Virus record (IMG/VR): IMGVR_UViG_3300033066_001396
Span: 1-64,000 of that record
Reading direction: 5' to 3' (one strand)
From: a virus
Lineage: Duplodnaviria; Caudoviricetes
Length of the DNA: 64,000 bases
The position numbers and the translations under genes are program-made. Of the stretch, positions 7,214-56,472 are shown in pieces. Numbering within the stretch: the stretch's first letter is position 1; every line of letters starts with the position of its first letter. The notes under the pieces were generated by a model. That model was not told the DNA's origin. It ran no database searches and saw only the letters and a program-made list of their open reading frames with translations.

Positions 7214-10200
7214 GATTTTAATTTTTCCAATACCATTGAAAGCACTCGTTGATTAGGTCGGTTATTCTTTTTGTTAGGCAACACACTAAATCCAATTGTC
7301 TTCGCGGCAGCGGAGATAGCCGACGATCGGCACTCACCCACAAGGCAATGAACCAATACATTAGCCTTTATCTCGGCAGCATGGCGTAACACCTTAGCGA
7401 TAGCTTCTGCCTGTGCTGGCTGTATACTTTCTGCTTCGGTGGCCAGGACTCCTTTGCTTGTCCATTCATCAGAAAAAGCGAAGTAATACCTTTCCAGGGG
7501 ACTGAATTTAGGCTCAGGAAAGTCCTCTCCGGCATCAAGTATCTGGATTAGTATGGTATTGTCTCCTACTTCAAAATGCTTTCCGTCAACTATGTCTTGC
7601 CTGCTTACATTCTGAATGAAAGGCTCCGTAGGCACACTGTAGTCTTCTGGCACCGGAAGTATTATCTCGACACGTTCAGCCCACTCATCGGACGTTGTTT
7701 GTCCCCAGTAAACCACCCGTGCGACACGTTTATCCATATCATGAGTGAAATACTTAGCATAATGAATAACTCCATTCTGGAAGTTTGGTGGTTGATATTC
7801 CAGGTTTATACCTATTCCATTCTCATCATCAAACGCAACCAAAATATGCTTGTAGTCATTACGAGGGAAGTCTTTGCGTTCTACATTCACAACATAGTAA
7901 AATGATTTTTTCAAACTAGCAGTATAATCTCCAAGTACCAGGGGATTAGGAGGTGGTTGGTTGTCTACGGTGTACTGTTGCACGGCACGGCGCTTAAAGT
8001 CAAGGCCGGCAAATTTCTCATACTGAGCTACCGTCCTGGCTGTACCAAGTCCATAGGTTGGATCGAGGGTTATGTGGGGATGATCTTCTATGCCAAAGAG
8101 CTTCATGATCATCTTCCGGTTTTCATTCTGTTTTTCGTCCCAATGGATTCCCTTACGGTTGTCATCATCCCATTTGCATATCTGACTTCTCTCCTCTCTC
8201 ATCGTGCCGTGCCATAGGACAAGGCGGTGTGGATGATAGAAATCATATCCGTGAGTCCATGACCGTACTGTCAGGTTTATCTCTTCCCCGGCGAAGTAAA
8301 TGCTGGGGTCATGTCGCACATCCCTGGCCCACTGGCTCCTGGCGAAGTCAAAGTGACCACACAGGAAGCGGGCCGGAATGGGCTTGGTTGCCGTCTCCCA
8401 CCCATTAAGAGATTGTGGTCCTATAAATATTGTCCCAAAAGGATAGAAGCACCGGAATCCAGACATCCAGGGGTGTGTAACTCGGTCGCCAGGATCGTTG
8501 AATGGGCTGTATTGTGGTGTGTATCCGGTTAATATCGGCTTTTCTACGCCATCAGCTTCCAACCCATTAAGCATACCGATCATAATGCAGTCCCAGTCTT
8601 TTACAAAGCGGTGATGGGCATCAAGCTGCAGTACATAATCTTCGTCAGTCAGCAAGGTGTCGTTGATCAGCCCCCTGGCATAAGGAAGCCCCTTGGCCTC
8701 TTCATACGGCATATCAATGATCTTAAATCTGGGATCACTCCTGAACTCATCAAGGTTGTCAAACCCATCAGTAGGATTGTATTGCCGGCATATGCCGAAA
8801 TGTATACGGGCAGGATGTGTTGCGTGTAACAGCGCATCGAGTATCGTTGGAATCAGTTCTGGCTCCCGGTATGCCGGAAGATGCACCAGGATGGTCTCGG
8901 AGAATGTGTCTAGCGCCATATCCTCATTCACATCATCGATAGTAGCTATCCCTGGCGTTTGTGTGTATGGGGTTTCCAGGTTCTTTTTATACAAAGCAAC
9001 CATGTCCGTTTTTGACGGTGGAGGCATAGCTACTTCAACATGAGGCCGATCTTCAACATGGGTCTCGCTTGACGCTGCCTTAACAACGGCCTTTCCTCTC
9101 AGATCTTTCCATATAGGATCGGCCCATCCTTTTGACGTGCTGAATGGCCATACCAGGGCTTTTACAGGCACCCGATCATAAAAGAACTCCCTCCATATCT
9201 TACAATACTTGTCTGGATCTTTGAAGTATCTTTCTATCTCTGCTGGTCCGGCATCTTGACGATACACGTCCTGATCATGCTCGTCACGGAACGCAACCAC
9301 CCAGAACTCATAATCTTTCTCCGGGACTTCATGATATCCTATATCGATACAATGCTTAAAGAATGGGAGAAAGGACTGATCATATTGTTCTTTTATCGCA
9401 TAATATGGGTTGGGAGGGGGATAGTTGTTTATAGTATATTTCTGGACGCTGCAGTCTTTAAACCGGATTCCTGAAAACTTTTCATATTCATCGAGCGATC
9501 TTTCTGTCCCCAGGCCAAACATACCCAGGTCTTCCCGATCACACCTAATACCTAAAAGCCTTCTGAATCGATCATGCGCCCGGCTGTTAAGTTTGTCATA
9601 TTGTGATCCGTTGTCGTCCCAGTGTCGCTTAAATCCTTTGCGCTCATAAAAGTGGTATATAAAACAGCGGTGAGGGTGAAAAAGGTCATATCCATGGGTA
9701 AAGGCGCGAACTGCTATGCTGGGCTCTTCACCATGAAAGTACATCTGAGGATCATGAGGGACCTCCTTTACAAACAAACCAGTGGTGAAAGCAAAATGGG
9801 CTGAATATAAGCGAGCGCGTATAGGCATTGTTATTTTGCCGGTGTCAGGCACATTCTGTGGTTCCACGTGTAACATCCCGTCATCAGGAGCAAACCTATT
9901 AAATCGCAAGGTCCACACTTCGTCTTTGTTGATATAAACCTCGGTCTGTGGATCATACCCTGGGACATATCCGGTTAATAGCGGCTTTTTAAATCCTTTG
10001 GCCTGAAGAGATAAATAGGTATCTATAAGATACAGGTCCCATGATTTGACAAAGCGGTGATGAGAATCTAACTGAAGCGTGTATTTCTCTCCATTATATT
10101 GCTGTTGAAGCATGTTCCTTGCCCAACATACTCCGCCAGAGTTTTTGTAATCAATGTCAATGATTTTAAACCGGGGATCGTCTTTGAATTCATCAAGATC

Positions 10201-10740: not shown

Positions 10741-13700
10741 TTAAGATAAAATTGATTGTTGAGCACAACATATGTCACCTGCCGCAGGGTTGATCAATGT
10801 ACCTGAACAGCACTGGTATCCTGGTAATAATTGCTGACCACCACAACAGTAGATTGACACACCACAAATATAACCCGTATAGCTTGGTCCGTAGCTTGCG
10901 CAATTGGTATTACATGGGCTTAGCGATGGGCTTGCGGATGCTGTCCTAGTAGCCGTAGGAGTAGCTGTGGCAGTAATACTTGCAGTAGGCGTTATTGATG
11001 GCGTCTTACTTGCAGTAGGCGTTGCACTTAGTGGTGGAACAGAAGTGCTTGGTGTGGCAGATGTACCATTTGAAGGAGTTGTGCTTGGACTAGGCGTGGC
11101 ACTAGGCGTGACAGGTGCCGATCCACTAAGCGACGGACTTGCAGTAGCGCTAGCCCCCGGCGTGCCGGATAAGGACGTGCTTGGCGTTGTGCTAGGAGTT
11201 TTGCTTGGACTTGGGCTAGGAGTATTTGAGTAAACAACTATTCCGCCTTGGTCTGGGCTCGTACTGATTGACGGGGTTATAGTCCTGGTTTGAGTAACGC
11301 TAACCAAAGAATGTGTAACCGACTTAGTAACACTAGTAGTAATGCTTGGCGTTGGAGCTATTGTACAGTCATACAGCTCAGTATATACTTTAGAAGTACA
11401 ACCAAGTATGCTTCCTCTGAATTCAATAGTTGTATTGTTAGGAATATTAATGATAGTACTTCCTACAACGGTGCCTGTACCTGATATAATCTCTATCGTT
11501 GGAGCATCAGCGAATATGATGTCGTAGGTAGCAGGGCTGTTGGTGCAGTCACGTGTCCAGGTCAAATTAACCTCTGATCGCGGAACCAAAACAACATCTG
11601 ATACGCACGCAACATCAAACTGAGCGAAAATAAAAATGTCGTCATTCAGTCCGGCCATGGCCTCGCTTAGCGTAACTTCTCTATTTACAATGCCTCCATT
11701 GATATCTGTGTTCACCGTCTCAATAAGGGTGCCATCGTTTCTATAGATAGACAAAGCCCGTGAAGGATAAGCAGTAGATATCGTATATCGTAGCTTAAGG
11801 ACACCGGACCCATCAGAATAGTATCCTGTGGTACAAGTGGTAAGCGCACTGATAATACGAGGTTTTAAGCAGGTCAATGCTTTCTCTCCTGCGCAATTAC
11901 ATAAGGCCTCGGCAACATAAAGCTTGCCATATTCTATGCCGTCAGGATTGGCAGGTTGAGTGCCGTCAAGTATTGCTTTGTCGGAGCCACCTGAAATAAA
12001 CTGTCGCTTGATCAGTGTTCCGTTCTCAAAGAAGTTGACTTTAATGTCTGATTTTGGACGCGGAAGTTCTTCTTTTACTATATCTACATAACCTGCGCTA
12101 TCCATGCGTTCTGTGTCTCCGTCACAAACTTTAGATGACCAGTTTGATGCCGAAAAGTTATAAACACAACCATCTACGAATGTAACGCCTACTAGAGAGA
12201 TCGCAACCCAAGCAAGGCAATTATCGCACAAGTGCTCATTGTCTCCGTAGGTAAATGGAATGTCATCGCCAGTAGGATGAAGTACATCTATTGCGCTTAA
12301 ATTGAAAGTGGTATTGTCGCTGAGTGATACTATAAATGTAAGATTAGCCGATCCTGTAAGATCAACTTGTCCGAACGTATAACAACGTGCGTCTTGAACT
12401 ATGCCCACAATTGTCTGGCTATTGGTATTGTTAACCAATGTAATTCCAGTAATGTGAGTGCCGATAGTTGAAGGCCATCCCATACAAAGCCTTAAAAGCG
12501 AATGATTGTCGGCATATGTCCCACCGGGGGCTGTTCCGCTATATACTCGCTCAAGACTAAAGCTTGAGGTAAAAGAATCCTGTGCCTGGGCACTACATGG
12601 AATATCTACATATCCGCCCACCTCGTTGACATTAGCAATGTCTACTATCTTCCTGAATTCAGGAGCATCAACAAGGAGTTTTCCGCTCTTAATAAATGGA
12701 TTAGCGCCATATCCCACCTCAAACAACCCCTTTAAAGCGTTGGTATTCGCAAAATCTGATTGGAAAGTGAGTCTAAAGAAGTCACCCATTTTGGTAACGG
12801 TCTTTATGAATATCGGCAATGGTCGTTCTGCATCACATGGGCATGTTGACGCCGGAACACTTACCTCATATTTGCTGCCATTTTGTACAACAACCACATC
12901 AGCATCTTCAATATCACATGCTGCAGAAGTACGTATTTCAAGGGTTCTGGTTCCTTCTTCGTTGCCTCTACGGAGCGTAACGGTATTCACGCCAACTATC
13001 CCCGGCACTGTGGCACCAGGTACATATGGTCCGAATCCTGATCCGTTGACTTTAATCTGATAGGTGTCGCCCGGCTTGTCAGCAGAATATATGCTACCAG
13101 GAGGTATTTTAATAACTGGCGTGTCGCCTACTTTTTCAAGTTGAAAACTTAGGTCAGCACATGGGAATATTCCCACCTTTCCGCCAGGGCATCCAACCTT
13201 GCTCCACTCAACTACTATAAGCTTTTTAGGATCGGTAGTGATAGGTCCTTGTCCGACAGGAGTAAAGGTAAATGGCTTGTTGAAGTTGGCAGTACTCAAT
13301 ACTGATTTGCTAATAGGATAACCATTCAGCCTATATGTAACGGCATCGTTAAGATTGCCCATTGTCCTGTTGCTGGTACAGTGACCATTTAAGATTGGCT
13401 CGAAAGCGTTACAGCAATTTTTTTTTTCACTTCCGGTAGCAGTTCCACAAGGGAAGTTTACTGTATAGTCATATACAGGAGCCCCTTCGATCCATGCGTC
13501 AGCGATAAATGTTACTTTCTCAGCATCATCGATCTCGGGACTTATATTAGTTCCGTTGTGAACCCTCATAGTTACAGAGGTGAACGTAGGGGTATATTTT
13601 GCTTTCCAGAAAGTGTATCTGACCTTTGTTCCGGGAGGCACAGGTACACCGCCAACAACCAGGTCATTAGCGCATTCAGCATCAGGAATTACTGATGGAG

Positions 13701-35691: not shown

Positions 35692-35976
35692 TTATGCCGC
35701 CATTTTCCACGGTTTTAAGGCATAACTCCACTTGTCTCCAGCACTCAAGGTCTTAGCCTGAGAGCTTGGATGTGTAGCAAAGATGCCACGCACGATTTGT
35801 AGATAGTTGATGACCGCCCCTACCAATATCATTGTGGCCTGAACAAAGTGCTCAGAGAACAATGCCGGCGCCCAATCTGGCAACCCAACCACCTTGGTTC
35901 CAAGTAAAACCAAAAAGGTTCCAATGCCAATCCAGGCAGAAGTCACCTTGGCCACCCATGCAGGTAAATTTTCCAT
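35692..35976 (-). CDS. Two-TM membrane protein, holin candidate
   Basis: Likely start MENLPAW at 35976; two hydrophobic helices and a basic C-tail; own TATATTTG at 36013-36020. Confidence 0.5.
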   Translation of the reverse strand: MENLPAWVAKVTSAWIGIGTFLVLLGTKVVGLPDWAPALFSEHFVQATMILVGAVINYLQIVRGIFATHPSSQAKTLSAGDKWSYALKPWKMAA

Positions 35977-36028
35977 AATTATTTGTTGTTTTAAATTAAA
36001 AAATATTTCTATCAAATATATACACAAT

Positions 36029-36634
36029 CTAGGATATAACCAGTTTTTTGGTCTTGGCTATCTCATCAATAAACCACTGATCGCTTGGATGCCGGCGCAC
36101 CAGATGACCTTCGTCGTCAACCCCTTTGTTGATCCATTCGAGATACCTTGCAGCCTCTCCCCTCATGTCATCAAATCGCTGTTGGCCCCAAACCTCAATC
36201 ATCATAGACTCCATGGCAGCTACGGTCTCTGGTTTGTCTACATTGTGCCTGTAACAGCATATTCCGCTATTAACCGGATGGGTCCACAGTTGGTATATGT
36301 GTGATTTAGCGTAATAATGAGATACCTGGGCCGTATAAAGTCGGTTTGTAACTCCCTGCAAGAAGGGCTTCCTGTCGATCCAGCAAAAAGATGTCAGTCC
36401 TTTTTTTTGGTAGAAAGGGAATATTTTGGCCCGCCAATGATATTGTAGCTTTGCCTTTAACTTCTCCCGGTCATGGTTGGGAGATATTCGCCTCTTTACA
36501 GCCTGGTAATATTTTTTTTCTTTGCCCTTGCTTTCTTTTATAGAAGCCTTCCATGCTGATATCTTCTCCCGATTGCATTCGTTACAAAAAGCTCCTTCCT
36601 TATAGAAAGATCCATGAACTTCACATACTGGCAT
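36029..36634 (-). CDS. NinG/Rap-like His-Me finger nuclease
   Basis: N-terminal CxxH..CxxC; CWID...VSHYYAK...LWTHPVN..ICCYRHN resembles NinG; TAG stop. Confidence 0.6.
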   Translation of the reverse strand: MPVCEVHGSFYKEGAFCNECNREKISAWKASIKESKGKEKKYYQAVKRRISPNHDREKLKAKLQYHWRAKIFPFYQKKGLTSFCWIDRKPFLQGVTNRLYTAQVSHYYAKSHIYQLWTHPVNSGICCYRHNVDKPETVAAMESMMIEVWGQQRFDDMRGEAARYLEWINKGVDDEGHLVRRHPSDQWFIDEIAKTKKLVIS

Positions 36635-42008: not shown

Positions 42009-42084
42009 TGCGGAATGGAGAAGTTGGTATCTCGTAGGGCTCATACCTCTAAGATCGGTGGTTCAAGTCCATCTTCCGCTACCA
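42009..42084 (+). tRNA. tRNA-Met(CAT), initiator (fMet) type
   Basis: Cloverleaf: acceptor TGCGGAA/TTCCGCT with 1:72 mismatch, A11:U24, anticodon arm TAGGG-CTCATAC-CTCTA, TTCAAGT loop, encoded ACCA. Confidence 0.92.
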
Positions 42085-49438: not shown

Positions 49439-50152
49439 ATGCCAGAGCAAGTATTTCATATCAATGACGAGACCAGGCACCTCATTATCACCAACCGCAA
49501 AGGGTTAGATGAGGAAACTCCATATTCGTTTCACCAGATCGGTAGGATTGACAGCGTTTCGAGATTTATTAATTGGAGCCCGGAAAAAATTTCAGGAAAG
49601 CAGGCGCCTACTATTAACTCAATTATAGAGGTCTATCCAGATAAGGGATCAATAATTCTAATCATAGACCCTAACGATCGTTATGGGAACAAGGTTACCG
49701 GATCATTGGAATCGGCTCCCGATCTGGATCAATTTAAGATCAACACCAACAAGAAGTATGATAGAAACGATTTACTAAAACTTATTCGATTCAACTCATA
49801 TCGTATAGATAACGCAAAACGGCTTATCGAGGAACTGCAAAAACTCAATATCAGTGCCAGTATTCAGTCTAAAAACCAAAAAGACCAAAGGGGTAATGTA
49901 GATAAACTTTTTTCTAAGAACATAGTTTCTGAGATACCAGAGTCGTTTGTAATTACTATGCCGGTTTTTAAATCGATGCCGGCAGAAAAGTTCCGGGTAG
50001 ACATCGTCATGGAGGCTACGGATTCGTCTGTGGAGTTCTGGCTTGAGTCGGTAGAGCTACACCAGTTGATTGAAACGCGCAGGGCCGAAATCCTGGACGA
50101 AGAAGTTAAAAAAATTGAGGAAAGTGGATTCCTCGTCATCTATAAAAACTAA
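49439..50152 (+). CDS. DUF2303-like conserved phage protein
   Basis: G.IDSV..F, VTGSL, DQRGN, IPESF..TMPVFK. Confidence 0.55.
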   Translation: MPEQVFHINDETRHLIITNRKGLDEETPYSFHQIGRIDSVSRFINWSPEKISGKQAPTINSIIEVYPDKGSIILIIDPNDRYGNKVTGSLESAPDLDQFKINTNKKYDRNDLLKLIRFNSYRIDNAKRLIEELQKLNISASIQSKNQKDQRGNVDKLFSKNIVSEIPESFVITMPVFKSMPAEKFRVDIVMEATDSSVEFWLESVELHQLIETRRAEILDEEVKKIEESGFLVIYKN

Positions 50153-50156
50153 TAAA

Positions 50157-50330
50157 ATGGAAGTTGCAGTAAATAAAAAGTATTTAGCAGAACTCCCAAG
50201 TATTGGGATTGTGGAGGTGGTTATTATCCAAAAAACCAAAAGTGGCATGTTTATTTTCATAGATGGCCGTGGCGTATCTAAGTGGATAAGGACTGCTGAT
50301 TTTATAGCTATGATCCTAGAAGAAATTTAA
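50157..50330 (+). CDS. Hypothetical protein
   Basis: Likely start MEVAVNKK at 50157. Confidence 0.55.
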   Translation: MEVAVNKKYLAELPSIGIVEVVIIQKTKSGMFIFIDGRGVSKWIRTADFIAMILEEI

Positions 50331-50341
50331 AGCTAACAAAA

Positions 50342-50413
50342 GTGAACGTAGCTCAGCGGTAGAGCAGTGGACTCTAAATCCACCGGTCATGGGTTCAACT
50401 CCCATCGTTCGCT
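50342..50413 (+). tRNA. Amber-suppressor tRNA, anticodon CTA (reads UAG); amino-acid identity uncertain
   Basis: Full cloverleaf: GTGAACG/CGTTCGC, D-arm GCTC-AGCGGTA-GAGC, anticodon arm GTGGA-CTCTAAA-TCCAC (CTA at 50374-50376), T-arm ATGGG-TTCAACT-CCCAT, U73, no encoded CCA. Confidence 0.9.
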
Positions 50414-50426
50414 CAAAATATCAGCC

Positions 50427-50594
50427 ATGAAAGAGAAGCTTGAGAAGATCAATGAGGCTATAAAGACCTTAAAGGCGGTGAAGCGGGAGATTAAGCTGTC
50501 TAAGCTTTATGCGGACGATGTTAAGATCAGCATAGCTCACGAGGACAGCAGTATAACGATAAAGATCAAAGAGGGATGGGTTCAATCGGTGTAA
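50427..50594 (+). CDS. Hypothetical protein
   Basis: Start MKEKLEK after the tRNA; the track start at 50367 lies inside the tRNA. Confidence 0.55.
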   Translation: MKEKLEKINEAIKTLKAVKREIKLSKLYADDVKISIAHEDSSITIKIKEGWVQSV

Positions 50595-50681
50595 AAATTT
50601 AATTTATGGATAGGAAAAAGTACGAAGAGGATTTAAAGCGTAGGCAGGAAGAGCATTTATGACAAATCCGGAGAATAAGAT

Positions 50682-51413
50682 ATGAAGTCAAGTTCTTTGG
50701 TATATAATACTGACTGCATGGTGGGTATGCCTCAATATCCCGATCACTATTTTGATCTGGCCATATGTGATATTCCCTATGGCATTGGAGTAGGTAAGAT
50801 GGCATATTTATCAGAATTAAAGAACAGGGTAAGGCAAAAAAACGGAAGTAGGTTAAATGCCAATGCCAATAAAAAAGCCTACACAAAAAAAGAGTGGGAC
50901 ACAAACGTTCCTGGTCAGGATTATTTCAATGAACTTACTAGGATATCTAAGCATCAGATAATATTTGGAATTGAATATGTAACCTGGGATGGCGTGGGGT
51001 CCGGCAGGATTAAATGGAACAAAGGCACCCCCGATGGTGTAAGCTTCAAGAAGTATGAAGTGGCGTATTGCTCAATCATTGACCATGAAGTTGAGATCCA
51101 TTTGCTGTGGGCGGGAATGAATCAGGCCAAAAGTCTTTCCGAGCCAATGGTTCAGCAAGGGAATAAAAAGCTAAATGAAAAGCGAATTCATCCTACACAC
51201 AAACCAATATTACTATACCAAAGACTTATAGCCGACTACGGTTTTCCTGGGTGCCGGATAATTGACACGCATGTAGGAGGAGGCAGTAGCAGGATAGCGG
51301 CTGACATGACCGGGTGTGAATATGTGGGGTTTGAAATAGATCAGGAGTACTTCGAAAATCAGGAGAAAAGGTTTCGTGTCTATAAAAATCAACTAAATTT
51401 GTTTCGATCATGA
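50682..51413 (+). CDS. DNA methyltransferase (N4-C/N6-A, beta class)
   Basis: DLAICDIPYG, HPTHKP, IIDTHVGGGSS, GFEID. Confidence 0.88.
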   Translation: MKSSSLVYNTDCMVGMPQYPDHYFDLAICDIPYGIGVGKMAYLSELKNRVRQKNGSRLNANANKKAYTKKEWDTNVPGQDYFNELTRISKHQIIFGIEYVTWDGVGSGRIKWNKGTPDGVSFKKYEVAYCSIIDHEVEIHLLWAGMNQAKSLSEPMVQQGNKKLNEKRIHPTHKPILLYQRLIADYGFPGCRIIDTHVGGGSSRIAADMTGCEYVGFEIDQEYFENQEKRFRVYKNQLNLFRS

Positions 51414-51583
51414 GTCCAAAATCATACATATTTAAGAAAACCGGAGGCAAAAACATCAAAAAGAGAGAGCCTAAGTGGTTAAAGGAATACGCCAAGTCCG
51501 TCCAAAATTTAATGGATAAAATAGGATACTGTTTTACTGATGACAATGTACTTCTCCAATATTTTAGAAACAATAAACAATAA
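51410..51583 (+). CDS. Hypothetical 57-aa protein (not in track)
   Basis: ATGA coupling with the MTase; MSPKSYIFKK...NNKQ. Confidence 0.5.
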   Translation: MSPKSYIFKKTGGKNIKKREPKWLKEYAKSVQNLMDKIGYCFTDDNVLLQYFRNNKQ

Positions 51584-51586
51584 ACA

Positions 51587-52381
51587 ATGAAAACAATAAC
51601 ATTAGGACAGCTAAAACAATTACATGCCGCAGGTGAACTGGGTTCTTTTAATAGCAGAATTGATTTTGTATTAATAGATAACAGAAAAAACAGCGACGAT
51701 ACAGAAATAAACTTTGAAATAGATATGTTATGGTTAAAGACCGACAAACAAAGAGATCTGTTAACCCAATGGGGCTTTATAGAACCAAAATTTAAAGAGG
51801 GTGATTATATTATTCATCCAGAAGTTGGTTTTTGTAAAATAAGGACTATAATTGGGAATGCTATTGAATATGTTTATGAAGGAAGTACTTTGGTTTGTTC
51901 TATGCATATCGAGTCAGGTAATTGCAAAAACTCCCGACTTGCGACTCCGGAAGAAATAGAGGCCAATACCTTAATCAAATTAGAAGTAGGTAGTTATATT
52001 GTTGATCATTTTGGAAAAACAAACCAAATAGTATCAGTTGATTCAAGGGGATATGTTGAAGTTAAAAGAAAAGAAGGGTGGAATACGGCATTTTGGATTG
52101 GTAGTGACTTTCACAAAAAAGCAAAACTTGCAACCCCAGAACAAATAAAAGCATTCAATACCGTCTGGAATGAAGGTATTGAAGAAGCCCGTAAGTACAA
52201 GGATGGGCAACCGTGCTTGGTTAATTGCCTTAATAATCCCGGTGGTTGGTTTCTCAGATATGCAGACGGCAATGGTTTTTTTTATGATGCTTGTAAAAAA
52301 AGCGGGAAAACAATTATTACCTGGGATCGCCACATGCCACTAAACGAGACAACAATTAAAAATTTACCTGTAAATGAGTAA
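51587..52381 (+). CDS. Hypothetical protein with duplicated small beta domain
   Basis: FKEGDYI...RLATPEEI and LEVGSYI...KLATPEQI. Confidence 0.7.
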   Translation: MKTITLGQLKQLHAAGELGSFNSRIDFVLIDNRKNSDDTEINFEIDMLWLKTDKQRDLLTQWGFIEPKFKEGDYIIHPEVGFCKIRTIIGNAIEYVYEGSTLVCSMHIESGNCKNSRLATPEEIEANTLIKLEVGSYIVDHFGKTNQIVSVDSRGYVEVKRKEGWNTAFWIGSDFHKKAKLATPEQIKAFNTVWNEGIEEARKYKDGQPCLVNCLNNPGGWFLRYADGNGFFYDACKKSGKTIITWDRHMPLNETTIKNLPVNE

Positions 52382-52384
52382 TAT

Positions 52385-52555
52385 ATGAAAAAACAAGATT
52401 TTACATTTGATGAATGGTTTGACATCGTTTTGGGCAAAATAGAGAAAGGCGGATGGAATGGAGCGGTCAATAAAGATTCTTTTGATCTTGAATACTTAGA
52501 AGGCATGTCGCCAGAACAAGCTGCAAAGGAGTTTTTGGAAATACACCAAGGCTAA
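52385..52555 (+). CDS. Hypothetical 56-aa protein (not in track)
   Basis: MKKQDFTFDEWF...YLEGMSPEQAAKEF. Confidence 0.6.
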   Translation: MKKQDFTFDEWFDIVLGKIEKGGWNGAVNKDSFDLEYLEGMSPEQAAKEFLEIHQG

Positions 52556-52567
52556 TTTTTTAAAGTT

Positions 52568-52783
52568 ATGAGTAGCATAGATCCAAGCAGAGAGATTGTT
52601 CCATGGAATCCACCTGAGAAAATGGACCTTGTGACTTATATTACAACTTGCTGCTTCTACGGTGAATTTTACAATCCATTTCAGCCATATACCGTTGATT
52701 ATAGAGATGTATTTGGTATACGTGCCCCAGGTGATGAATTAAAGATGAAGTTATTAAAACTAGGATGGAAAAAAATAAACTAA
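52568..52783 (+). CDS. Hypothetical protein
   Basis: Packed in the operon. Confidence 0.55.
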   Translation: MSSIDPSREIVPWNPPEKMDLVTYITTCCFYGEFYNPFQPYTVDYRDVFGIRAPGDELKMKLLKLGWKKIN

Positions 52784-52787
52784 TCAT

Positions 52788-53252
52788 ATGAAATCAGGAG
52801 TAGAACTTATTGCCGAAGAAAGACTGGAACAGATCTTAAAACACGGCATAACAACTGAAAGAGATGTTGAAGAAAATTGTGATTATCAGTTACGTATTGG
52901 AGCAATGCGATTAATTGGTGATCGAGATGATTATCCTGCCCCTAATGGATGGAATAAGGCTCTGTGGGCTAAGATGATATCTAAACCACACAAAGATCGA
53001 TTGATAATTGCCGGTGCTTTGATAGCTGCTGAAATTGACCGGATTCAGGAAGCGGAGAAAGACAAAAATGTCGAACCCAAATCAAAAACCTACCAAGAGA
53101 TGCAAATGCTCTTAACCCTTTATAGCATAGATCACAAGGTAATAGACCTTACTGAGGACGGTAATGGTTATGGTAAGGTGATCTGCATTAAAAACGAAGA
53201 CCTGAAAAAGCTTGAATATTTAAAACAAATCTCAAACGAATTAAACCAATGA
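52788..53252 (+). CDS. Conserved phage hypothetical protein
   Basis: GVELIAEER..Q..KHG.T.E.D; LIIAGALIAAEIDR. Confidence 0.7.
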   Translation: MKSGVELIAEERLEQILKHGITTERDVEENCDYQLRIGAMRLIGDRDDYPAPNGWNKALWAKMISKPHKDRLIIAGALIAAEIDRIQEAEKDKNVEPKSKTYQEMQMLLTLYSIDHKVIDLTEDGNGYGKVICIKNEDLKKLEYLKQISNELNQ

Positions 53253-53611
53253 ACAGAAGTACTTTTTTAAAAACGCTCTTTGGGCTGACCCTGGCTCCCT
53301 TCGTCCCGGTCCACAAAAAACCAACCACATACAAATTTATGAGCCCAGACGTACTTCTCGGAGGCACCAGCTGGATACAAGAAAACTGTCACCGCTCCTA
53401 TTCTATATCCCGGGATCCGGTAAATTCCTTTGAGTATGTGGATCGAAGCTTTACTGGTAACTCCATCTATCATCCTGGCACAGGATTCTTTGAGTACGCG
53501 GATACGCAAAATATGTACCTTTTTGACTCACAAAAACTTACCATGGGAAAATTGTCAAAAATGTTTGTTGAATTAGAAAAAACAAAAAAGTATCTTAGCA
53601 CCATGAAATAG
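53249..53611 (+). CDS. Hypothetical protein with degenerate Tat-like N-terminus; ends at the TAG inside the Pth2-like frame
   Basis: MNRSTFLKTLFGL...; in frame with 53603..53947. Confidence 0.6.
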   Translation: MNRSTFLKTLFGLTLAPFVPVHKKPTTYKFMSPDVLLGGTSWIQENCHRSYSISRDPVNSFEYVDRSFTGNSIYHPGTGFFEYADTQNMYLFDSQKLTMGKLSKMFVELEKTKKYLSTMK

Positions 53612-53947
53612 ATTAAATTAATCACCGTCGTCCGGAATGATCTTGTCCCAGGATCGCAGCTTGTTCAGTCAATGCACGCAGCCATGGACTTCGCCCACAA
53701 CTATTCACACTTACCTTCATATATTGCCTGGCGCGACAGCCTTTATATCGTAAGTCTGTCAACATCTCAGAAATCACTATTCGCTCTATGCGACAAGCTT
53801 GACAGCCTGCAGATCATTTACCAGCCATTTACCGAGCCCGACATGGGCAACGAACTGACGGCAATATGTATCGAGCCTACTGATGCGGCACTGAAGGCAG
53901 TATCTCATTTACCACTAGCATTAAACAATTTAAATCAAATATTATGA
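53603..53947 (+). CDS. Pth2-like (peptidyl-tRNA hydrolase II fold) protein with in-frame amber at codon 3
   Basis: ATG AAA TAG then IKLITVVRNDLVPGSQLVQSMHAA...YIVSL...FTEPDMGNELTAICIEP...VSHLPL; the family N-terminal motif lies upstream of the track start 53672. Confidence 0.8.
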
Positions 53948-54210
53948 AAGGATGTAAATCATTGACACCAGAACAACTAGCGGCACTAAACGAAAGAGAG
54001 GAGCAGCGTTACAATTCAAGAACTTCTGCCCACCTATTCCAGAAAGAAAAAAGTTTATTTAAGCTTATTCCTTTTGACGAAAGTCATTACATAGCGGTAA
54101 GGCTTAATGAAGACTTTTCGCTGATCAGTGCAAGGCCGGAGAGCAGCGACCTTTTATTTCACGGCCCCAAATCACGTGCCATCAAGCACACCAAATTTCA
54201 CCGGCGCTAA
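53944..54210 (+). CDS. Hypothetical protein
   Basis: ATGA coupling to the Pth2-like gene. Confidence 0.55.
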   Translation: MKGCKSLTPEQLAALNEREEQRYNSRTSAHLFQKEKSLFKLIPFDESHYIAVRLNEDFSLISARPESSDLLFHGPKSRAIKHTKFHRR

Positions 54211-55824: not shown

Positions 55825-56472
55825 ATGAAATGTACAAGATGCGGCAAAGAAGCCTATAATCACCGCCGCTGTGATGCCTGCATAAGGAAATGGACTGACA
55901 TGAGAGCCACAATATGGGAAACCCTCACCATCAAATACGGAAAATTCTCCCCAGAGAACATCAAAGAATGGCAAAAGGAAACCAGAAAGCTCGAAAACAT
56001 ATGGAAAAAGGACGAAACCAAATTCACAGAAGCTATAAACAAAATCCACATGACAGACTGCTACTTCATCCCCTCAAAAGAATCCTCTTCCGCAACCATC
56101 TGCGCTAACTGCGGCCAAGAAAAAATGGTACACACCGCAGGCGAAGGCCTTAAAGCAAGTAAAGTCATCATGAACTTTACCCAAGAAGAACAAACAGAAC
56201 TCCAAAGGCTCTCAACTATCATCCACTACAAACAACCCACATATGACGACCTGGAAAAAGCCGACGCCCTTTCAAGGAAAAAAATTGGGTATCAACAGAG
56301 CCTCAAGCCAGTAACCCTTACGCGCATCCCCCATAAATTCAAAAAAATCCTTGTAAAAAAAGACGGTTCCACCTGGCACCTATCTAACTCCGAAGTAAAA
56401 GACTGGGAGAAAGCCGGCTCAATATCCCCGGGCGACATACTTTACCGAATAGTCACCGACACCCTTTACTAG
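55825..56472 (+). CDS. Hypothetical protein with CxxC motifs
   Basis: CTRCG..CDAC..CANCG; TAG stop directly followed by an in-frame ATG. Confidence 0.6.
   Translation: MKCTRCGKEAYNHRRCDACIRKWTDMRATIWETLTIKYGKFSPENIKEWQKETRKLENIWKKDETKFTEAINKIHMTDCYFIPSKESSSATICANCGQEKMVHTAGEGLKASKVIMNFTQEEQTELQRLSTIIHYKQPTYDDLEKADALSRKKIGYQQSLKPVTLTRIPHKFKKILVKKDGSTWHLSNSEVKDWEKAGSISPGDILYRIVTDTLY

What the first reader, a model, noticed from the sequence alone, without database searches (positions are those of the whole stretch)
50342..50413. Amber-suppressor tRNA(CUA) with chimeric identity elements in a genome that is not recoded
Seen: a perfect cloverleaf with a CTA anticodon. Long structural genes are uninterrupted under code 11, and by my count only about 7-8 of ~90 genes end in TAG. 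The acceptor end (G1-C72, U2-G71, G3-C70, U73) looks Gly- or Cys-like rather than Gln-like, and the anticodon arm is Tyr/Cys-like. Established: some crAss-like phages reassign TAG to Gln genome-wide with suppressor tRNAs. Inference: here suppression is targeted (see the Pth2-like gene) or marks an early stage of recoding.
Basis: partly seen in the sequence, partly recalled or inferred. Interest (0 to 1): 0.8.

Follow-up and report, generated by a model that had tools for sequence, protein, structure and literature searches.

The report
Stop-reading tRNA paired with gated gene
A crAss-like phage that otherwise uses the normal genetic code carries a well-conserved tRNA that reads the UAG stop codon. 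Its one clear target is a small tRNA-hydrolase-like gene 3.2 kb away whose third codon is UAG, a pairing that recurs in dozens of unrelated phages and that I did not find described in the literature.

Summary
A canonical tRNA with anticodon CTA lies at 50342-50414 (+). Independent assemblies from three studies carry it unchanged, and syntenic relatives keep it 97-99% identical while flanking genes are 73-86% identical.

The genome is not recoded. Coding density is 0.94 under code 11 and under code 15, late genes are intact, and TAG ends 11 of about 160 genes.

One gene needs UAG readthrough: a PTH2-fold gene at 53603-53947 that begins ATG-AAA-TAG. Its conserved first strand lies between the TAG and the next ATG. 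ATG 53603 has a normal start context and ATG 53672 does not. The gene shows 14 synonymous against 3 non-synonymous changes versus a relative that keeps the same TAG.

Among 80 IMG/VR homologues, about 73 have ATG, 0-7 codons, then an in-frame TAG. Seventy loci carry a tRNA(CTA) on the same strand. The one TAA leader sits with a tRNA(TTA).

So the tRNA belongs to a widespread two-part module: a suppressor tRNA plus a stop-gated PTH2-like gene. It is not a sign of incipient recoding. The inserted amino acid and the purpose of the module remain unknown. The tRNA scaffold is not Gln-like.

This scan has found the same module before on other DNA. Four literature searches found no description of it.

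The parts
50342..50414 (+). tRNA with anticodon CUA (amber suppressor type). It has a 7-bp acceptor stem including U2.G71, a 4-bp D stem, a 5-bp anticodon stem, the loop CUCUAAA, a 5-nt variable loop and U73. CCA is not encoded.
   Evidence: ARAGORN. Rfam RF00005 at 69 bits. It is 71/73 and 72/73 identical in syntenic relatives whose flanks are 73-86% identical. It is unchanged in contigs of other studies.
50374..50376 (+). Anticodon CTA.
   Evidence: It is invariant in L144-L147.
53603..53947 (+). PTH2-fold (peptidyl-tRNA-hydrolase-like) gene of 114 codons that begins ATG-AAA-TAG-ATT.
   Evidence: HMMER finds 698 homologues, which align from the residue right after the TAG. PF01981 is matched by 24 of 25 aligned members, though this protein scores 19.1 bits against a cut-off of 23. 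The AF2 model has pLDDT 95.6 with strand 1 at residues 5-11. Foldseek top hits are Pth2 structures at TM 0.76-0.77. The profile matches PDB Pth2 at E 4e-9. There are 14 synonymous and 3 non-synonymous codon differences versus L144.
53609..53611 (+). In-frame UAG, codon 3 of the PTH2-like gene, and at the same time the stop of the upstream ORF.
   Evidence: It is conserved in L144/L145 and in strain X3. Homologues carry a TAG in the same leader position.
53249..53611 (+). Upstream ORF of 120 codons with a hydrophobic N-terminus, in the same frame and ending on the leader TAG. Readthrough would also give a 232-residue fusion.
   Evidence: Its start context score is 3.8, typical of true starts. 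It is 56% identical in L144.

Best explanation
The tRNA(CUA) is a functional phage amber suppressor. Its dedicated target in cis is the UAG at codon 3 of the PTH2-like gene 3.2 kb downstream on the same strand. Shown: the tRNA and the gated gene are both under purifying selection, and the pairing is conserved across many phage lineages, with stop and anticodon changing together. Inferred: the tRNA is cut out of the early/middle transcript, gets its CCA and its amino acid from host enzymes, and competes with release factor 1 at UAG. The hydrolase-like protein is then made only, and in proportion, when suppression is active. Which amino acid is inserted probably matters little, because the codon lies in a non-conserved leader and the partner tRNAs of other copies have unrelated scaffolds. 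My best guess for the purpose, at low confidence, is dose-matched damage control. Suppression also reads through the phage's ten other TAG stops and the host's, which yields extended proteins and stalled ribosomes. Extra peptidyl-tRNA hydrolase activity would recycle the tRNAs trapped that way.
For: The tRNA is real and selected: 69 bits. It differs at 1-2 of 73 positions in relatives whose neighbouring genes are 73-86% identical in DNA, with the anticodon invariant. It is unchanged across three studies. The gene needs readthrough. Homologues align from the residue after the TAG, and the invariant Q22 and H25 and strand 1 lie upstream of the only code-11 ATG. The start-context score of ATG 53603 is 3.0, the 39th percentile of true starts. 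ATG 53672 scores -6.3 and ATT 53612 scores -2.1. The gene is functional: 14 synonymous against 3 non-synonymous differences versus L144, which keeps ATG-AAA-TAG-ATT. It is the only such gene in 124.6 kb. Family-wide, about 73 of 80 IMG/VR homologues have ATG, 0-7 codons, then TAG. Seventy carry tRNA(CTA) on the same strand at a median distance of about 1 kb. After dereplication at 70% identity, 30 of 31 TAG-leader clusters have the tRNA. L206 has a TAA leader with a tRNA(TTA) whose acceptor stem matches CTA tRNAs of related copies. Homologues with an ordinary ATG start (L173, L189, L190) have no suppressor tRNA. The base after the leader stop is always a purine, 73 of 73. From my own knowledge, that is the favourable context for amber suppression. 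These loci are not recoded.
Against: Nothing is experimental. Expression, charging and suppression are all unshown. Relatives L146/L147 keep the tRNA at 72/73 identity, but no PTH2-like gene or other gated ORF lies in the 19.7 kb held, so the tRNA may have a further role. L168, L235 and L236 have a TAG leader but no tRNA within 8-10 kb. The codon after the TAG is mostly ATT, ATA, GTA or GTT, which are near-cognate starts, so reinitiation is not excluded. TAG still ends 11 genes here, so a strong suppressor should carry a cost. tRNA and gene are probably co-transcribed, so gating adds no obvious timing. The Lys of the Pth2 'GK' motif is not conserved in the phage family, so hydrolase activity is not assured.
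Confidence: 0.68

Rival explanations
1. Incipient or relict TAG-to-sense recoding. The phage acquired a suppressor tRNA as the first step toward code 15, and the TAG in the PTH2-like gene is simply the first tolerated CAG-to-TAG drift.
For: Borges et al. propose this path and saw suppressor tRNAs in standard-code relatives of recoded phages. TAG is the rarest stop here, 11 of 160. The phage is crAss-like.
Against: The in-frame stop sits at the same leader position in 30 or more clusters that share only 35-47% identity, and always in this one gene family. No other gene in the record or in the related loci carries an in-frame TAG. In-frame continuation after a stop is no commoner for TAG (3 of 11) than for TAA (17 of 86). 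Relatives use TAG as the stop of portal and other late genes.
Confidence: 0.08
2. The leader ATG-AAA-TAG is a two-codon mini-ORF, and the hydrolase-like protein starts by reinitiation at the adjacent ATT. The tRNA(CUA) does something else, such as global readthrough of host or phage TAG stops or a counter-defence role. On this view it merely shares a translation-gene neighbourhood with the PTH2-like gene.
For: The codon after the stop is ATT, ATA, GTA or GTT in 64 of 73 cases. L146/L147 keep the tRNA without a gated gene in reach. L168 and L235/L236 have the leader without a tRNA in reach. From my own knowledge, phage lambda bar minigenes tie mini-ORFs to peptidyl-tRNA hydrolase biology.
Against: A TAA leader is paired with a tRNA(TTA). 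tRNA and gene lie on the same strand in all 70 loci, and 21 are within 300 nt. Ungated homologues lack the tRNA. The start context of ATT 53612 is poor. Nine leaders are followed by codons that are not near-cognate starts, such as AAC, AAA, AGA and GGA.
Confidence: 0.14
3. The tRNA is a dead or mis-assembled copy of a sense tRNA and has no function.
For: CCA is not encoded. No RNA data are on hand.
Against: The cloverleaf is perfect, with all conserved tRNA positions present. The sequence is identical in contigs from three studies. It is 97-99% conserved where the flanks are 73-86% identical.
Confidence: 0.02

Closest known systems
Phage-encoded suppressor tRNAs of stop-codon-recoded phages (TAG read as Gln, 'code 15': crAss-like, Lak and others; Borges et al., bioRxiv 10.1101/2021.08.26.457843; Yutin et al., PMC7886860)
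   Same: A phage tRNA with anticodon CUA in a crAss-like phage that probably infects a standard-code host. The tRNA is encoded among standard-code early/middle genes. Host enzymes are presumed to charge it.
   Different: There is no genome-wide or late-gene recoding here, only a single in-frame TAG in one small non-structural gene. The scaffold is not tRNA-Gln-like, unlike the IMG/VR tRNA in L005. No release factor or GlnRS/GluRS gene is present.
Orphan suppressor tRNAs of standard-code jumbo phages (for example Xanthomonas phage XacN1, PMC5852040)
   Same: tRNA(CUA) genes in a phage that uses TAG as a normal stop. The XacN1 authors read through annotated amber stops and found no target.
   Different: Here a target is identified. 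It is an early in-frame TAG in a leader, not a stop at the end of a gene. The XacN1 homologue of this PTH2-like protein is the C-terminal part of ORF364 and has no in-frame TAG.
prfB (release factor 2) autoregulation through an early in-frame UGA
   Same: An in-frame stop early in a translation-factor gene makes its synthesis depend on how that stop is decoded.
   Different: prfB uses a +1 frameshift and senses its own product. Here a dedicated tRNA would read the stop, and no feedback is shown. This comparison rests on my own knowledge.
Archaeal and eukaryotic Pth2 (PF01981; PDB 3erj, 2zv3, 1q7s, 1xty)
   Same: The fold is the same over the full length, TM 0.69-0.77. The profile matches at E 4e-9.
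   Different: This is a phage family with its own invariant residues (Q22, H25, W43, D80, T86). The Lys of the Pth2 'GK' motif is not kept. Activity and substrate are unknown.

Membership tests
Canonical elongator-type tRNA (Rfam RF00005) | Cloverleaf with conserved U8, A14, G18-G19, U33 and G53-T54-T55-C56-A58, scoring above the gathering threshold | tested here: met
   69 bits against 29, full-length match, no non-standard pair. ARAGORN agrees.
tRNA-Pyl (the label ARAGORN prints for CTA) | Small D-loop without G18-G19, 6-bp anticodon stem, 3-nt variable loop, atypical T-loop | tested here: not met
   The sequence has G18-G19, a 5-bp anticodon stem, the 5-nt variable loop CGGUC and the T-loop GTTCAAC. 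The Pyl features listed are from my own knowledge.
Code-15 (TAG=Gln) recoding suppressor of crAss-like or Lak phages | [quoted passage not shown] | tested here: not met
   Late genes are intact under code 11. Density is 0.941 against 0.945. Only one gated gene exists.
Code-15 (TAG=Gln) recoding suppressor of crAss-like or Lak phages | tRNA-Gln-like scaffold (U1-A72, 3-bp D stem GCC/GGC, G73) | tested here: not met
   The tRNA has G1-C72, a 4-bp D stem GCUC/GAGC and U73. It contrasts with the Gln-like tRNA(CTA) of L005.
Suppressor-tRNA plus stop-gated PTH2-like gene module (seen here in IMG/VR loci; not in the literature searched) | PTH2-family gene with ATG, a few codons, an in-frame stop, then the conserved domain, with no usable start in between | tested here: met
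   ATG 53603, AAA, TAG 53609-53611, then the domain. The layout is the same in about 73 of 80 homologues.
Suppressor-tRNA plus stop-gated PTH2-like gene module | tRNA whose anticodon reads that stop, on the same strand within a few kb | tested here: met
   The tRNA(CTA) lies 3.2 kb upstream on the + strand. Seventy of 80 loci have one on the same strand within 7 kb.
Suppressor-tRNA plus stop-gated PTH2-like gene module | The stop is actually read through by the tRNA | not testable with these tools
   No RNA or protein data are available. The TAA/TTA paired change in L206 is indirect support only.
PTH2 peptidyl-tRNA hydrolase (PF01981) | Sequence match above the Pfam cut-off | tested here: inconclusive
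   The window's protein scores 19.1 bits against a cut-off of 23. Of 25 aligned homologues, 24 match, the best at 1.2e-12. The profile matches PDB Pth2 at E 4e-9.
PTH2 peptidyl-tRNA hydrolase (PF01981) | Pth2 fold | tested here: met
   The AF2 model has pLDDT 95.6. Foldseek gives 3erj at TM 0.76 and 1q7s at 0.77, with 13 hits at E<=1e-3, all of them Pth2-family structures.
PTH2 peptidyl-tRNA hydrolase (PF01981) | Catalytic residues and hydrolase activity | tested here: inconclusive
   The Lys of the 'GK' motif aligns with non-Lys residues. An Asp and a Thr are conserved, but the register is uncertain. No assay was possible.

The most novel reading that the evidence does not exclude
The tRNA and the gated PTH2-like gene form a self-contained translational circuit. 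The leader UAG senses how active the suppressor is. The enzyme then acts back on translation. It might hydrolyse the peptidyl or N-blocked form of its own suppressor tRNA, which would give a homeostat that caps readthrough. Or it might undo tRNA-directed host defences such as tRNA-acetylating toxins. On this reading the puzzling suppressor tRNAs of standard-code phages would be parts of a natural lock-and-key switch, not steps toward a new genetic code.
Probability: 0.2. Interest if true: 0.9.

Novelty: new variant of a known kind. Interest (0 to 1): 0.78.

Why it matters
Suppressor tRNAs in phages that use the standard code have had no known target. The XacN1 study looked for one and found none. 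Here the target is identified by comparative evidence, and the pairing is general across phage lineages. That gives a concrete hypothesis that can be tested at the bench: a natural single-gene amber switch. It also has a practical side. Gene callers truncate or miss this gene family, or translate it with TAG=Q, which hides the stop. And it shows that a phage CUA tRNA need not signal recoding.

Tried and rejected
- Near relatives in IMG/VR: none found with the capsid protein, the neighbour gene or an exact tRNA pattern.
- Megablast against the phage collection: no match.
- Exact acceptor-stem pattern in 185,000 species genomes: 0 hits.
- Metagenome scan for the same central region with CTA: 0 hits. 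A looser scan gave 13 other CUA tRNAs, none closer than 56 of 72.
- Isotype assignment by identity of the outer parts to 381 reference tRNAs: no isotype stands out.
- Release factor domains (PF00472, PF03462) and GlnRS/GluRS (PF00749) in the 124.6 kb held: none. The record is about 80% complete.
- Ribozyme or other RNA family next to the tRNA: none.
- Two further in-frame TAG junctions, at 56470 and at genome position 75390 upstream of a C5 methyltransferase: rejected as ordinary adjacent genes. In-frame continuation is equally common after TAA.
- The N-terminal extensions of longer PTH2-like homologues do not resemble ORF1.
- RNA evidence: no RNA holder is listed.
- TerL relatives L141-L143: their records are not held, so their tRNA content could not be read.
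- The search for related loci with the 25-sequence alignment failed for lack of a conserved stretch. A 6-sequence alignment worked.
- XacN1 is not an example of the gated gene.
- TAG stops are 1 of 56 in the late blocks against 10 of 104 in the early block. The numbers are small and I ran no formal test.
It was redone from the window file.

Full report
**1. The observation**

ARAGORN finds two tRNAs in the window: Met(CAT) at 42009 and a CTA-anticodon tRNA at 50342-50414 (+). The 'Pyl' label only means CTA. Rfam's tRNA model matches 50342-50413 at 69 bits against a gathering score of 29, E 6e-13, over its full length with no non-standard pair.

The sequence shows G1-C72, U2.G71, G3-C70 and U73. 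It has a 4-bp D stem with G18-G19, the anticodon loop CUCUAAA, a 5-nt variable loop and a normal T-loop. CCA is not encoded. It therefore has none of the odd features of tRNA-Pyl.

The window is the first 64 kb of a 124,566-bp IMG/VR virus record estimated to be 80% complete. The record holds three tRNAs: Met, CTA and His.

**2. The genome is not recoded**

A greedy ORF map covers 0.941 of the record under code 11 and 0.945 with TAG as sense. After antisense ORFs are removed, about 160 genes end in TAA (86), TGA (63) or TAG (11).

In-frame continuation of 60 or more codons after a stop occurs at 17 of 86 TAA stops, 6 of 63 TGA stops and 3 of 11 TAG stops. TAG junctions are therefore not special.

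No release-factor or GlnRS/GluRS domain is found in the 124.6 kb held.

**3. What kind of phage this is**

- The large terminase is about 27% identical to those of Cellulophaga phage phi14:2 and the crAss-like phages.
- In relatives the syntenic capsid gene carries Pfam Crass_capsid.
- Gene starts lack Shine-Dalgarno motifs (GGAG in 3 of 101) and have A-rich leaders, the pattern I know from Bacteroidota.
- Runs that hold the stretch are wastewater and river metagenomes.

**4. The anticodon is real and selected**

Contigs from a second study (X3) span 50200-54000 with 34 differences, none of them in the tRNA. A riverine contig (X5) covers 50290-50437 with no difference.

Homologues of the neighbouring gene 49439-50152 led to four syntenic loci. 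All four carry the same tRNA(CTA) at the same place, and also the tRNA-Met. The tRNA is 71/73 identical in L144 and 72/73 in L146, while the flanking genes are 73-86% identical in DNA. The two changes are a G.U-preserving C43U and one variable-loop base.

**5. The scaffold**

- An exact acceptor-stem pattern finds nothing in 185,000 species genomes.
Of these, 120 are tRNA-Phe(GAA).
- Full-length identity to these Phe tRNAs is at most 56 of 72, and no isotype stands out in the acceptor and T arms.
- A Gln-like tRNA(CTA) from IMG/VR (L005) is clearly different.

The amino acid cannot be assigned from the sequence.

**6. The target**

Only one TAG in the record meets all three of these conditions: an ATG within 8 codons upstream, 70 or more open codons downstream, and no other gene covering the start. 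It is the TAG at 53609-53611. The local sequence reads ATG AAA TAG ATT AAA TTA.

- An exhaustive HMMER search with the 114-codon reading finds 698 homologues. They align from the residue right after the TAG, and the invariant Q22 and H25 lie upstream of the only code-11 start, ATG 53672.
- A start-context matrix built from 99 other genes scores ATG 53603 at 3.0, the 39th percentile of true starts. ATG 53672 scores -6.3, like an internal ATG, and ATT 53612 scores -2.1.
- The protein is of the PTH2 kind. PF01981 is matched by 24 of 25 aligned members, though the window's own score of 19.1 bits is below the cut-off of 23.
- The AF2 model has pLDDT 95.6, with strand 1 at residues 5-11.
- Foldseek's top hits are archaeal Pth2 and human Bit1 at TM 0.76-0.77. 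The profile matches PDB Pth2 at E 4e-9.
- The Lys of the Pth2 'GK' motif is not conserved, so activity is unproven.
- L144 and L145 keep ATG-AAA-TAG-ATT exactly, although the upstream ORF is only 56% identical. The gene differs from L144's at 14 synonymous and 3 non-synonymous codons. It is a working gene, not a pseudogene.

**7. The pairing is general**

Looking up two database homologues showed that their 'Q' at the leader position is in fact TAG: L149 reads ATG AAA AAG TAG ATT and L150 reads ATG AAA TAG ATT. A third homologue has TGA at codon 9.

A scan of IMG/VR with a six-sequence alignment gave 80 loci at 35-47% identity.

- About 73 have ATG, 0-7 codons, then an in-frame TAG just before the conserved domain. 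L206 has TAA instead.
- ARAGORN finds a tRNA(CTA) in 70 loci, always on the gene's strand. The median distance is about 1 kb, and 21 lie within 300 nt.
- L206 carries a tRNA(TTA) instead, and its acceptor stem matches CTA tRNAs of related copies.
- Homologues with an ordinary start (L173, L189, L190) have no suppressor tRNA.
- After dereplication at 70% identity, 30 of 31 TAG-leader clusters have the tRNA.
- The base after the leader stop is a purine in 73 of 73 cases.
- These loci are not recoded. Density and mean ORF length barely change under code 15, and TAG ends ordinary genes.
- The partner tRNAs are very diverse, 62 unique sequences among 76. L230's shares the window's acceptor and anticodon stems.

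**8. Exceptions and open points**

- L146 and L147 keep the tRNA, but no PTH2-like gene or gated ORF lies in the 19.7 kb held.
- L168, L235 and L236 have the leader but no tRNA within 8-10 kb.
- In this window the upstream ORF (53249-53611) ends on the same TAG in the same frame, so readthrough would also give a fusion protein.
- The codon after the TAG is usually ATT, ATA, GTA or GTT, so reinitiation cannot be fully excluded.

**9. Literature and earlier notes**

[quoted passage not shown] The XacN1 paper reports two tRNA(CUA) genes with no target found. Four full-text searches found no paper that links a PTH2-like gene to a suppressor tRNA.

After I had reached the result, I found that this scan holds several independent reports of the same module in other genomes. 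One of them was later priced at 85/100 for what was seen and 20/100 for the bold switch reading.

**10. Verdict**

The tRNA is real, conserved and most likely a working amber suppressor. Its one clear role in cis is to allow translation of the stop-gated PTH2-like gene. It belongs to a widespread two-part module that I did not find described in print. It is not evidence of incipient recoding. The inserted amino acid, the enzyme's substrate and the benefit to the phage remain unknown.

Noticed in passing
window 53249-53611: The upstream ORF (120 codons, hydrophobic N-terminus) ends on the very TAG that is codon 3 of the PTH2-like gene, in the same frame. Suppression would also make a 232-residue fusion. 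In most other module copies a TAA lies just upstream of the leader ATG, so no fusion arises there.
   Followed up: partly
window 53371-53419: Strains X3 and X4 carry ten clustered substitutions here, changing five residues of ORF1, while the adjacent PTH2-like gene is unchanged in X3.
   Followed up: partly
L146 10735-10807 and L147 10735-10807: Relatives keep the tRNA(CTA) at 72/73 identity, but no PTH2-like gene or ATG-x-TAG gated ORF lies in the 19.7 kb held. L146 also carries a Tad2-like gene at 12748-13197.
   Followed up: partly
L206 (IMG/VR), leader at about 9998-10000 and tRNA at 9121: The leader stop is TAA and the nearby tRNA has anticodon TTA. Its acceptor stem matches the CTA tRNAs of L217, L178 and L195, so stop and anticodon changed together.
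   Followed up: yes
L230 8104 (IMG/VR, GC 60%): This tRNA(CTA) shares the window tRNA's acceptor stem (GCGAACG/CGTTCGC against GTGAACG/CGTTCGC) and anticodon stem (GTGGA/TCCAC), although its D and T arms differ.
   Followed up: no
window 42009-42084: A tRNA-Met(CAT) is conserved at 96% in the same relatives. Whether it is of initiator, elongator or Ile2 type was not examined.
   Followed up: no
genome 75126-77297 (L002 11126-13297): A C5 cytosine methyltransferase carries a long AT-rich insert between its conserved motifs. An 88-codon ORF ending in TAG precedes it in frame. I judged these to be two separate genes.
   Followed up: partly
window 35692-36066 (-): Gene 35692-36027 is called from a TTG right after the TAG stop of 36029-36634. 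An in-frame ATG-x-TAG lies 11 codons upstream but overlaps the upstream gene. This is probably chance.
   Followed up: partly
whole record: Gene starts lack Shine-Dalgarno motifs (GGAG in 3 of 101) and have A-rich leaders at -8 to -14. That fits a Bacteroidota host.
   Followed up: partly
L149, L150, L151 and protein P0004: Public protein collections hold this family truncated (the 91-residue code-11 call), or translated with TAG=Q or TGA=W. That hides the in-frame stop from protein-level searches.
   Followed up: yes
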